In this document: positions 61,201-64,000 of the stretch, in pieces | Numbering within the stretch: position 1 is the stretch's first letter | Layout: each line of letters opens with the position of its first letter | Assembly (NCBI RefSeq): GCF_055900595.2 | Contig: NZ_CM148325.1 | Direction: 5' to 3' (one strand) | Length of the DNA: 64,000 nucleotides | Made by a program: the position numbers

Positions 61201-64000
61201 CATCGGCAGCGTTTTCAATAATCAGATCGTTAAGTGTTCGCGTTTCACGCAGTGCCTGGGCGAGGTTGTTGACACTCTGACTAATTTGCCCCATTTCACC
61301 GGGCAATTGTGGTAATCGAGTGGGAATATTTTGCGCCAGAGTCGCGAGACCATCGGTGATGATATCTATATTGGCGCTCAGGCGACGGGAGAAAAGGACA
61401 ATCAACAGCAGGCTTATCAGCAAACCGGCGGTGAGCACAATGATAATCCTCACATCCATTTTCCAGGCCTGGCGGCGAATATCTTCGGTTAATTCATTGG
61501 CCCAGATATAACCGAGGATTTCACCATTACGCTCAATGGGGATCATTGAATTCAAAATATCGCCGCGCACCTGCCTGCCTGAATAAATCAAAGTAGTATT
61601 TGTACGCATGACTTCGCGACCAGGGTGATCTGCGGCAATAGTAACGCCCACATTATTCTGATACAGCGCTGAAGGCGCGTAAGTGATTATCGCATCCAGC
61701 GTTTTGTTGTAATAACCAGCGCCTATGCCAGGAAAGGCGTGAGTGATATTTTCAGTAATGGGAGCAAGTTCTGCATTCAGTGCGTGGATTCGCTCCTCAC
61801 GTGGTAAGTCGTTGTAGAGATCGTAGCGATCGCCTAGCGCCTGATTAAGCAGGTTGACCACGGCAGAAAGTTTTTTCTCTTTTTCAGATAAGACTGCTGA
61901 ACGTCCTTCCGTTTCTACGATATAACCAATAGTAAGCGTTGGGACAATGACCATCAGGATTGCCATCAGGATCATTTGATTGCGTAAGCGGCGTGGATAA
62001 ATCCACTTCATATAATGCATGCTGAATCCCACTAGTCTTGTCCGGTATATGACGATTATCAGAGGTTAAGGTGATGATTTCTCGGCGGTGTATCATATTC
62101 CAGAGAAGAGAGAACATTGCGGTAACACGCTTTTACCGCTACCTTAACCACACTCCATCGGTCACCTGAGGCGGAGCTTCGCCCCTTTGAAATACCTTGC
62201 TTCTTTTCGTACAACCCTGAAAGCCTCGCGCTACATGTTCAGAGCATTGGCGTTAGTGCTCTGGCTGTTGATTGCTTTTTCATCCGTTTTTTACATCGTT
62301 AATGCGTTGCATCAGCGAGAATCGGAAATTCGTCAGGAATTTAATCTGAGTTCCGATCAGGCTCAGCGCTTTATTCAACGCACCTCTGATGTGATGAAAG
62401 AGCTGAAGTACATAGCTGAAAATCGCTTATCGGCAGAAAACGGTGTGCTTTCGCCGCGTGGACGAGAAACGCAGGCAGATGTGCCTGTGTTTGAACCACT
62501 GTTTGCCGACTCCGATTGTTCCGCAATGAGTAACACCTGGCGAGGTTCTCTGGAGTCATTGGCGTGGTTTATGCGCTACTGGCGCGATAATTTCTCTGCG
62601 GCTTACGATCTCAACCGGGTATTTTTAATCGGCAGCGATAACCTCTGCATGGCCAATTTCGGTCTACGTGATATGCCAGTGGAACGCGATACCGCATTGA
62701 AAGCTTTGCATGAACGCATCAATAAATATCGAAATGCACCACAAGATGATAGCGGCAGTAACCTCTACTGGATCAGCGAAGGTCCGCGCCCTGGCGTCGG
62801 GTATTTTTACGCCTTGACGCCAGTTTATCTGGCGAACCGGTTGCAGGCGCTTTTAGGTGTCGAGCAGACTATCAGGATGGAGAACTTCTTCTTACCTGGT
62901 ACATTGCCGATGGGGGTAACCATTCTTGATGAAAATGGTCATACCCTGATTTCGCTTACCGGACCGGAAAGCAAGATTAAGAGCGATCCTCGCTGGATGC
63001 AGGAACGTTCCTGGTTTGGCTATACGGAAGGGTTCCGGGAACTGGTGCTGAAGAAAAACCTGCCACCTTCATCGTTAAGCATCGTCTATTCGGTGCCGGT
63101 TGATAAGGTGCTGGAGCGCATTCGCATGTTGATCCTTAACGCGATTTTGCTGAATGTGCTTGCCGGAGCCGCGTTGTTTACTCTCGCACGGATGTACGAG
63201 CGGCGTATATTCATTCCTGCGGAAAGCGACGCCCTGCGACTGGAAGAGCATGAGCAGTTTAATCGCAAGATTGTCGCCTCCGCGCCAGTGGGTATCTGCA
63301 TTTTGCGTACCGCTGATGGTGTTAATATTTTAAGTAACGAACTTGCGCATACCTATCTCAATATGCTTACGCATGAGGATCGCCAACGACTGACGCAAAT
63401 TATCTGTGGTCAGCAGGTCAATTTTGTTGATGTCCTGACCAGCAACAATACCAATCTGCAAATCAGCTTCGTCCATTCGCGCTATCGTAATGAAAACGTG
63501 GCTATTTGTGTGCTGGTGGATGTTTCTTCGCGCGTGAAGATGGAAGAGTCGTTGCAGGAGATGGCACAAGCAGCGGAACAGGCGAGTCAGTCAAAATCGA
63601 TGTTCCTTGCCACCGTCAGTCATGAGCTGCGAACGCCGCTGTATGGCATTATCGGTAACCTGGATCTGTTGCAAACCAAAGAGCTGCCAAAAGGCGTCGA
63701 TCGTCTGGTGACGGCAATGAACAACTCTTCCAGCCTGTTGTTGAAAATTATCAGCGATATTCTCGATTTCTCGAAAATTGAATCAGAACAGTTGAAGATC
63801 GAACCGCGTGAGTTTTCACCGCGTGAAGTGATGAACCACATCACCGCCAACTATTTACCGCTGGTGGTACGCAAGCAGCTAGGCTTGTACTGCTTTATTG
63901 AACCGGATGTGCCAGTGGCCTTAAATGGCGACCCAATGCGTTTACAGCAGGTCATCTCCAACCTGTTGAGTAACGCCATAAAATTCACCGATACCGGCTG

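What the first reader, a model, noticed from the sequence alone, without database searches (positions are those of the whole stretch)
62187..64000. rcsC runs off the window and appears to start at a non-ATG codon
The RcsC reading frame opens after a TAA at 62145-62147 and has no in-frame ATG before the conserved MKYLASF N-terminus. The only candidate start is TTG at 62187. The six-frame track omits this gene entirely because no stop lies within the window.
Basis: seen in the sequence. Interest (0 to 1): 0.15.

Follow-up and report, generated by a model that had tools for sequence, protein, structure and literature searches.

The report
rcsC gene starts at TTG
The envelope-stress sensor gene rcsC of E. 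coli does begin at a TTG codon and runs off the window; this start is already annotated and experimentally confirmed, so the finding is correct but ordinary.

Summary
An in-frame TAA lies at 62145-62147. The 13 codons after it contain no ATG, GTG or TTG. TTG follows at 62187, then KYLASFRTTLK, and the frame stays open to 64000 (604 codons plus 2 nt). RefSeq annotates rcsC from this TTG as 949 aa in a strain 100% identical to the window, in a K-12 MG1655 record and in an ato-less strain. The NCBIfam RcsC model aligns residues 1-604 to its positions 1-604.

It is not the start:
- It has no Shine-Dalgarno sequence.
- Most other genera have Leu at that codon.
- In 81 Enterobacteriaceae sequences, three-base substitution periodicity begins at the TTG.

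Published N-terminomics in E. coli (PMC13245402, Table S1 row 477) lists the peptide MKYLASFR from this TTG. It has retapamulin ribosome-profiling support, and its 60-nt context is identical to the window.

One addition: codon 1 is TTG and codon 2 is AAA in all 87 Enterobacterales sequences examined. None of 42 four-fold sites in the same region is invariant. This suggests the weak start codon itself is under selection, probably to keep RcsC levels low.

Verdict: confirmed, already known, low interest.

The parts
62145..62147 (+). In-frame TAA that closes the rcsC frame upstream.
   Evidence: Sequence and translation. The upstream in-frame stop sits at different distances in other species, from 1 to 110 codons.
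62168..62176 (+). Shine-Dalgarno-like GAGGCGGAG. The GGAG core at 62173-62176 lies 10 nt upstream of the TTG.
   Evidence: Predicted duplex with the 16S rRNA 3' end is -7.6 kcal/mol, the strongest in 62100-62300. GGCGGAG is conserved in most Enterobacteriaceae loci.
62187..62189 (+). TTG initiation codon of rcsC.
   Evidence: RefSeq CDS start. TTG in 87/87 orthologues. N-terminal peptide MKYLASFR with Ribo-RET support in E. coli (PMC13245402 Table S1 row 477).
62190..62192 (+). Second codon AAA (Lys2), invariant in every sequence examined.
   Evidence: It is the only fully invariant degenerate codon among 109 amino-acid-invariant codon columns in 81 Enterobacteriaceae sequences. It is AAA in all 87 sequences.
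62187..64000 (+). rcsC coding sequence, 5' part: 604 of 949 codons plus 2 nt, cut by the window end.
   Evidence: Open frame. NF008099 RcsC equivalog matches 1-604/949. The full 949-aa gene in the identical strain has HisKA, HATPase_c, RcsC-ABL and receiver domains.
62235..62237 (+). In-frame ATG (Met17). An alternative start that was considered and rejected.
   Evidence: No SD (-0.1 kcal/mol). Codon 17 is Leu in most other genera, and the first in-frame ATG is at codon 70 in 48 of 81 sequences. Codons 2-16 evolve as coding sequence.
62244..62309 (+). First transmembrane segment, about residues 20-41. It follows a cytoplasmic tail (residues 1-19) with 5 Lys/Arg and no acidic residue.
   Evidence: The Kyte-Doolittle 19-residue window peaks at residue 20 (2.52).
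63129..63191 (+). Second transmembrane segment, about residues 315-335.
   Evidence: Hydropathy peak at windows starting at residues 312-316.
63594..63788 (+). HisKA phospho-acceptor domain (residues 470-534). The phospho-acceptor His479 is codon CAT at 63621-63623.
   Evidence: Pfam PF00512, 65 bits. The His index of 479 counted from the TTG matches the H479 numbering used in current Rcs papers found.
63927..64000 (+). Start of the HATPase_c domain (from residue 581), cut by the window end.
   Evidence: Pfam on the full-length protein of the identical strain places HATPase_c at residues 581-690.
60194..62020 (-). Divergent neighbour atoS (608 aa, ATG at 62018-62020). The intergenic region is 62021-62186.
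   Evidence: RefSeq annotation mapped from L001.

Best explanation
Bases 62187-64000 are the first 604 codons of rcsC, the hybrid sensor histidine kinase of the Rcs envelope-stress phosphorelay. Translation starts at the TTG at 62187, which is decoded as formyl-Met. Initiation is helped by a GAGG/GGAG Shine-Dalgarno element 10-15 nt upstream and by an A-rich second codon (AAA).

The first 19 residues (MKYLASFRTTLKASRYMFR, 5 basic and no acidic) form the short cytoplasmic tail before the first transmembrane helix.

The start at TTG is shown. It is an inference that the weak TTG codon is kept by selection to hold RcsC synthesis low.
For: 1. Reading frame: stop at 62145, no ATG/GTG/TTG before 62187, and an open frame to 64000.

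2. Annotation: RefSeq rcsC starts at this base, giving 949 aa, in strain Z0117EC0005 (100% identical), a K-12 MG1655 record, PCN033 and ES7. NF008099 aligns 1-604 to 1-604/949 at 1195.5 bits.

3. Comparative data:
- Codon 1 is TTG in 80/80 Enterobacteriaceae species representatives.
- Codon 1 is also TTG in 6/6 more distant Enterobacterales, including records a source names Erwinia sp., Pantoea sp. and Sodalis praecaptivus, with 43-53% identity and gyrA upstream.
- Minor-base frequency by codon phase is 0.03/0.06/0.37 for codons 2-16, against 0.40/0.32/0.34 upstream.
- Codon 17 is Leu in most genera, and the first in-frame ATG is at codon 70 in 48 of 81 sequences, beyond TM1.

4. Ribosome binding site: -7.6 kcal/mol upstream of the TTG, against -0.1 upstream of ATG 62235. 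The start region has no stable structure (z = +0.74).

5. Experiment: PMC13245402 Table S1 row 477 lists b2218 rcsC as an annotated TIS with TTG, peptide MKYLASFR (residues 1-8), Ribo-RET (BL21) and REPARATION support. Its 60-nt context is identical to window 62157-62216.

6. Population: that 60-nt context is 100% identical in 5409 of 5422 E. coli genomes. The one variant inspected differs at position -8, not in the TTG.

7. For selection on TTG itself: 0 of 42 four-fold sites and 1 of 109 amino-acid-invariant degenerate codons (codon 2, AAA) are invariant in the same 81 sequences. Invariant internal Leu columns mix CTG, TTG, TTA and other codons freely.
Against: Nothing contradicts the TTG start.

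Caveats:
- The proteomic and Ribo-RET evidence comes from other E. coli strains (coordinates are on the K-12 reference NC_000913; Ribo-RET in BL21), not from the strain of the window, although the 60-nt context is identical.
- The modification columns for row 477 are blank in the text copy of the table, so I could not see which N-terminal chemistry supported the peptide.
- GGAG-to-TTG spacing of 10 nt is somewhat long.
- The expression-limiting role of TTG is inferred from conservation only. No RcsC level or start-codon swap was measured, and the 87 sequences are phylogenetically related, so counts are not independent events.
Confidence: 0.97

Rival explanations
1. Translation starts at the downstream ATG at 62235 (Met17), giving a 933-aa protein. 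The 16 codons before it would be 5' UTR.
For: ATG is the preferred start codon in general (PMC5622118 abstract). From my own memory, not verified here, older RcsC literature used a 933-aa numbering consistent with this start. A protein starting MFR-TM1 is topologically possible.
Against: No SD upstream (-0.1 kcal/mol). Met17 is Leu in most genera, and the first ATG is then at codon 70 or later, beyond TM1. Codons 2-16 show coding periodicity and near-invariant amino acids. The peptide MKYLASFR was observed, and that table lists no downstream TIS for rcsC. His479 numbering in current papers counts from the TTG.
Confidence: 0.01
2. Dual initiation in Escherichia: most RcsC starts at the TTG, and a minor 933-aa proteoform starts at Met17.
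For: An in-frame ATG exists 16 codons downstream in 9 of 81 sequences, the window included. Alternative in-frame starts close to annotated ones are reported as common in E. coli (PMC13245402).
Against: No SD. No downstream TIS row for rcsC in the N-terminomics table. The ATG is not conserved outside a few lineages. A low-abundance membrane protein could escape detection, so absence of a peptide is weak evidence.
Confidence: 0.03
3. Initiation lies upstream of the TTG at a near-cognate codon (CTG at 62166), adding 7 residues.
For: CTG at 62166 is in frame and downstream of the TAA.
Against: SD energy is only -2.4 kcal/mol. There is no codon periodicity upstream. In many species an in-frame stop lies 1-8 codons upstream of the TTG. 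The observed N-terminal peptide begins with M-K-Y at the TTG.
Confidence: 0.005
4. The TTG is the start, but its universal conservation comes from another constraint overlapping these bases, or from limited sampling. It would then not reflect selection for weak initiation.
For: TTG and AAA are invariant together, which could mark a sequence-specific binding site. A Salmonella paper speculates that CsrA binds the rcsC leader (PMC7241856). The taxa are related and only 87 were sampled.
Against: The sequence immediately upstream is completely different in several genera and in Erwinia, Pantoea and Sodalis, yet TTG AAA is kept. Synonymous sites in the same sequences are saturated: 49-62% of amino-acid-identical codons differ between the window and other genera, and 0 of 42 four-fold sites are invariant. 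Lack of divergence is therefore not the reason.
Confidence: 0.3

Closest known systems
E. coli K-12 rcsC (b2218, UniProt P0DMC5, 949 aa; NCBIfam NF008099)
   Same: The window has the same gene and the same TTG start. The 60-nt start context and the 120 nt around the start are identical. The divergent atoS neighbour is also the same, and in the identical strain so are the convergent rcsB and the domain order.
   Different: The window's allele is about 97.3% identical to a K-12 MG1655 record over 61900-64000 and 100% identical to dog isolate Z0117EC0005. Only the first 604 codons lie inside the window.
Other E. coli genes with experimentally supported TTG starts (for example rpsT, and the 10 TTG sites among the 688 annotated starts detected in PMC13245402)
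   Same: A near-cognate TTG is decoded as initiator Met, with an SD-like motif upstream and an A-rich early coding region.
   Different: No autoregulatory or other mechanism tied to the rcsC TTG has been shown. Here the TTG is conserved in all 87 Enterobacterales sequences sampled, which runs against the general trend of selection towards AUG (PMC5622118).

Membership tests
RcsC sensor histidine kinase (NCBIfam NF008099 equivalog) | Whole-protein score above the curated cutoff of 920 bits | tested here: met
   1195.5 bits from the 604 residues in the window alone.
RcsC sensor histidine kinase (NCBIfam NF008099 equivalog) | N-terminus matches position 1 of the family model | tested here: met
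   Residues 1-604 align to profile positions 1-604 of 949.
RcsC sensor histidine kinase (NCBIfam NF008099 equivalog) | Two transmembrane segments flanking a periplasmic domain, followed by HisKA with the phospho-acceptor His | tested here: met
   Hydropathy peaks at about residues 20-38 and 315-333. HisKA spans 470-534, and His479 is CAT at 63621-63623.
RcsC sensor histidine kinase (NCBIfam NF008099 equivalog) | C-terminal HATPase_c, RcsC ABL domain and receiver domain | tested here: inconclusive
   These lie beyond base 64000, so they cannot be seen in the window. In strain Z0117EC0005, which is 100% identical over 61900-64000, the annotated 949-aa protein has HATPase_c 581-690, RcsC-ABL 709-799 and Response_reg 827-936.
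RcsC sensor histidine kinase (NCBIfam NF008099 equivalog) | Genomic context next to rcsB/rcsD | tested here: inconclusive
   rcsB lies outside the window. In the identical strain it is convergent, about 200 nt downstream of rcsC.
Genes initiated at a TTG (UUG) start codon | TTG in frame, no upstream ATG/GTG/TTG after the preceding stop, and protein conservation starting at that codon | tested here: met
Genes initiated at a TTG (UUG) start codon | Shine-Dalgarno element at a workable distance | tested here: met
   GAGGCGGAG at 62168-62176, -7.6 kcal/mol, GGAG 10 nt from the TTG. The published table counts 2 SD-core motifs, best spacing 11 nt.
Genes initiated at a TTG (UUG) start codon | Experimental N-terminus beginning with Met at the TTG | tested here: met
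   From the literature, not from this strain: peptide MKYLASFR and Ribo-RET (BL21) support, PMC13245402 Table S1 row 477, with an identical 60-nt context.

The most novel reading that the evidence does not exclude
The weak UUG start, together with the invariant AAA second codon, may be a conserved setting of expression level. Under this reading, purifying selection across Enterobacterales keeps RcsC initiation inefficient, so that RcsC stays at a low, fixed ratio to RcsD, IgaA and RcsB. A change to AUG or GUG would then raise RcsC and disturb the kinase/phosphatase balance. The evidence is TTG in 87/87 sequences against 0/42 invariant four-fold sites, despite unrelated upstream sequences. It has not been tested experimentally, and I found no paper in the searched library that states it.
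Probability: 0.45. Interest if true: 0.3.

Novelty: already known. Interest (0 to 1): 0.1.

Why it matters
For genome annotation, the case shows that a gene cut by the window edge and starting at TTG is invisible to a simple ORF list. It also shows that the nearest ATG would mis-place the start by 16 codons and remove a conserved basic cytoplasmic tail.

For biology, the start site itself is settled and adds nothing new. The modest point of interest is that TTG and the following AAA are invariant in all 87 Enterobacterales sequences sampled. That makes rcsC a convenient test case for whether weak start codons are kept to limit the dosage of a signalling protein. A simple start-codon swap could test it.

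Tried and rejected
- Hairpin hiding the SD (GGCG...CGCC around GGAG): folding 62140-62240 gives -13.7 kcal/mol, z = +0.74, no better than shuffles. The species variants listed (GGCCGAG...CGCC, GGCGGAGTTTCCCC) break the stem on one side without compensation. Rejected.
- Known RNA families in 58000-64000: none at gathering score.
- Sigma-70 promoter scan of 61800-62500: no site found. The rcsC promoter was not located.
- Solved structures of the N-terminal 342 residues: none in the PDB copy. A 2026 preprint (PMC13317618) reports cryo-EM of the RcsC periplasmic and TM region, but its text gave no information on the N-terminus or start codon.
- Literature searches for rcsC with TTG or UUG start codon found no paper that discusses the rcsC start.
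- The search for the old H463/D859 numbering found no E. coli paper in the library. The historical 933-aa annotation therefore rests on my memory only.
- The Ribo-RET preprint has no supplement held as text, and the INRI-seq supplements do not mention rcsC.
- The search for homologous proteins returned mostly fragments. It was useful only as a route to six distant loci.
- Upstream CTG start and Met17 start: rejected; see the rival explanations.

Full report
**What is in the sequence.** On the + strand an in-frame TAA lies at 62145-62147. It is followed by 13 codons (CCA CAC TCC ATC GGT CAC CTG AGG CGG AGC TTC GCC CCT), none of which is ATG, GTG or TTG. TTG follows at 62187-62189, and then the frame reads AAA TAC CTT GCT TCT TTT CGT ..., which is KYLASFRTTLKASRYMFRALAL. 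The frame stays open to the last base of the window: 1814 nt, or 604 codons plus 2 nt. It missed one thing: an in-frame ATG at 62235-62237 (codon 17), which had to be excluded as an alternative start.

**Identity of the gene.**
- The 604 residues score 1195.5 bits against the NCBIfam RcsC equivalog NF008099 (cutoff 920). Residues 1-604 align to profile positions 1-604 of 949.
- Pfam finds HisKA at residues 470-534.
- The phospho-acceptor His is residue 479 counted from the TTG (CAT at 63621-63623). This matches the H479 numbering in current Rcs papers.
- Hydropathy gives transmembrane segments at about residues 20-38 and 315-333. The 19-residue N-terminal tail has 5 Lys/Arg and no acidic residue, as expected for a cytoplasmic tail.
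- Window 61900-64000 matches 5422 of 5426 complete E. coli genomes. It is 100% identical to strain Z0117EC0005 and about 97.3% identical to most others, including a K-12 MG1655 record.
- In Z0117EC0005, the K-12 MG1655 record, PCN033 and ES7, RefSeq starts rcsC at the base that corresponds to 62187, giving 2850 nt or 949 aa.
- In the identical strain the full-length protein also carries HATPase_c, the RcsC ABL domain and a receiver domain, and rcsB lies convergent downstream.
- atoS is the divergent upstream neighbour, with its ATG at 62018-62020 on the minus strand.

**Comparative test of the start.**
- A scan of one genome per species gave 80 Enterobacteriaceae loci with 73-99% amino-acid identity over residues 1-342. 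Codon 1 is TTG in all 80.
- Six more distant loci also have TTG followed by AAA. They were reached through protein hits that a source names Erwinia sp., Pantoea sp. and Sodalis praecaptivus, plus three unnamed ones. They share 43-53% identity with the query and have gyrA upstream instead of atoS.
- Substitution periodicity begins exactly at the TTG. Minor-base frequencies by codon phase are 0.03/0.06/0.37 for codons 2-16 and 0.13/0.07/0.37 for codons 17-110. Upstream they are 0.40/0.32/0.34.
- Codon 17 is Met only in Escherichia and a few others. Most genera have Leu there. The first in-frame ATG is at codon 70 in 48 of 81 sequences, past the first transmembrane helix.
- Upstream in-frame stops lie 1 to 110 codons before the TTG in different species, which rules out a conserved N-terminal extension.

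**Initiation signals.** The best predicted pairing with the 16S rRNA 3' end in 62100-62300 is GAGGCGGAG at 62168-62176, at -7.6 kcal/mol, with GGAG 10 nt from the TTG. The regions upstream of ATG 62235 and CTG 62166 give -0.1 and -2.4 kcal/mol. The start region is not unusually structured (z = +0.74).

**Experimental evidence from the literature.** Table S1 of the TRAINSPOTTER paper (Nucleic Acids Res 2026, PMC13245402) has this entry in row 477:
- Gene b2218 rcsC, UniProt P0DMC5, 949 aa.
- TIS category dbTIS, start codon TTG.
- N-terminal peptide MKYLASFR, residues 1-8.
- Ribo-RET (BL21) and REPARATION support.
- Coordinates NC_000913:2319874-2319876.
- 60-nt context ATCGGTCACCTGAGGCGGAGCTTCGCCCCTTTGAAATACCTTGCTTCTTTTCGTACAACC.

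That context is identical to window 62157-62216. It is also 100% identical in 5409 of 5422 E. coli genomes. The single variant I inspected differs at position -8. The same table lists no downstream start for rcsC. The paper counts 10 TTG starts among the 688 annotated starts it detected.

**What goes slightly beyond the annotation.** In the 81 Enterobacteriaceae sequences, none of 42 amino-acid-invariant four-fold codon columns keeps an invariant third base. Only 1 of 109 amino-acid-invariant degenerate codons is fully invariant, and that one is codon 2 (AAA). Internal invariant Leu columns mix CTG, TTG, TTA and other codons. Between the window and other genera, 49-62% of amino-acid-identical codons differ. 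So the invariance of TTG, and of AAA, is not due to lack of divergence.

A T-to-A or T-to-G change at the first base would still give a working start codon, and a stronger one. Start codons in general are under weak selection towards AUG (PMC5622118 abstract). Retention of TTG in 87 of 87 sequences, across unrelated upstream sequences, therefore suggests selection for this weak codon. The most likely purpose is to limit RcsC synthesis. This is inference only: the sequences are related, no genome-wide control was run, and nothing was measured.

**Comparison with what is known, and verdict.** This is rcsC, with the start that RefSeq, UniProt and NCBIfam already use, and proteomics and ribosome profiling have validated it. 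From memory, not verified here, older papers used a 933-aa form starting at Met17, and the present data show why that was wrong. Interest is low. The only mildly new element is how deeply the TTG-AAA pair is conserved.

**Dead ends.**
- A hairpin masking the SD was rejected.
- Rfam found nothing.
- The promoter scan found nothing.
- The PDB copy holds no matching structure.
- Searches for papers that discuss the rcsC start codon found none.
- The search for the old residue numbering found no E. coli paper.
- The other initiation-profiling supplements were not held as text or did not mention rcsC.

Noticed in passing
window 62190-62192: The second codon, AAA, is the only fully invariant degenerate codon among 109 amino-acid-invariant codon columns in 81 Enterobacteriaceae rcsC 5' regions. 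It is AAA in all 87 sequences, including the Erwinia, Pantoea and Sodalis records. This fits the A-rich motifs reported around E. coli start sites (PMC13245402).
   Followed up: partly
window 62165-62185: The leader motif CCTGAGGCGGAGCTTCGCCCC is conserved in Escherichia, Citrobacter, Salmonella, Enterobacter and Klebsiella-like genera. Unrelated sequence replaces it in Pluralibacter, Yokenella, Trabulsiella, Cedecea and the distant Enterobacterales. A Salmonella paper speculates that CsrA binds upstream of the rcsC start (PMC7241856). I saw no compensatory changes that would support a stem.
   Followed up: partly
window 62119-62139: A perfect 7-bp inverted repeat, GCGGTAA-CACGCTT-TTACCGC, sits in the atoS-rcsC intergenic region. 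The scan flags it as terminator-like on the minus strand. It lies inside the 76 nt kept in strains that lack the ato genes.
   Followed up: no
window 62108-62111; L003 1380-1590: Some E. coli strains (for example PCN033) lack atoS here and have yfaQ-yfaP upstream of rcsC instead. Their homology to the window begins exactly at 62111, 76 nt before the TTG. The junction of this variable region therefore abuts the rcsC leader.
   Followed up: partly
window 61900-64000: This stretch is 100% identical to dog isolate Z0117EC0005 but only about 97.3% identical to most E. coli; just 54 of 5422 records reach 99%. By contrast, the 60 nt around the start codon are identical in 5409 genomes. The window carries an uncommon rcsC/atoS allele.
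   Followed up: no
window 62018-62032, minus strand: The mechanical ORF list extends atoS to a GTG at 62032 (612 aa). RefSeq annotates the ATG at 62020 instead (608 aa, MHYMKW...).
   Followed up: no
H20, NZ_CP103864.1 (E. coli O157:H7 RV06, 'culture mutant'): Only 26% of the query matches in this record. A truncated rcsC is annotated there directly next to rcsD, which suggests a deletion within the rcs locus in this laboratory-derived strain.
   Followed up: no
L005 (record titled Escherichia coli strain SCPM-O-B-8794): It has 98% amino-acid identity to the window's RcsC N-terminal region, yet 31% of amino-acid-identical codons differ. That is high for a within-species comparison. The record may belong to a divergent Escherichia lineage.
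   Followed up: no
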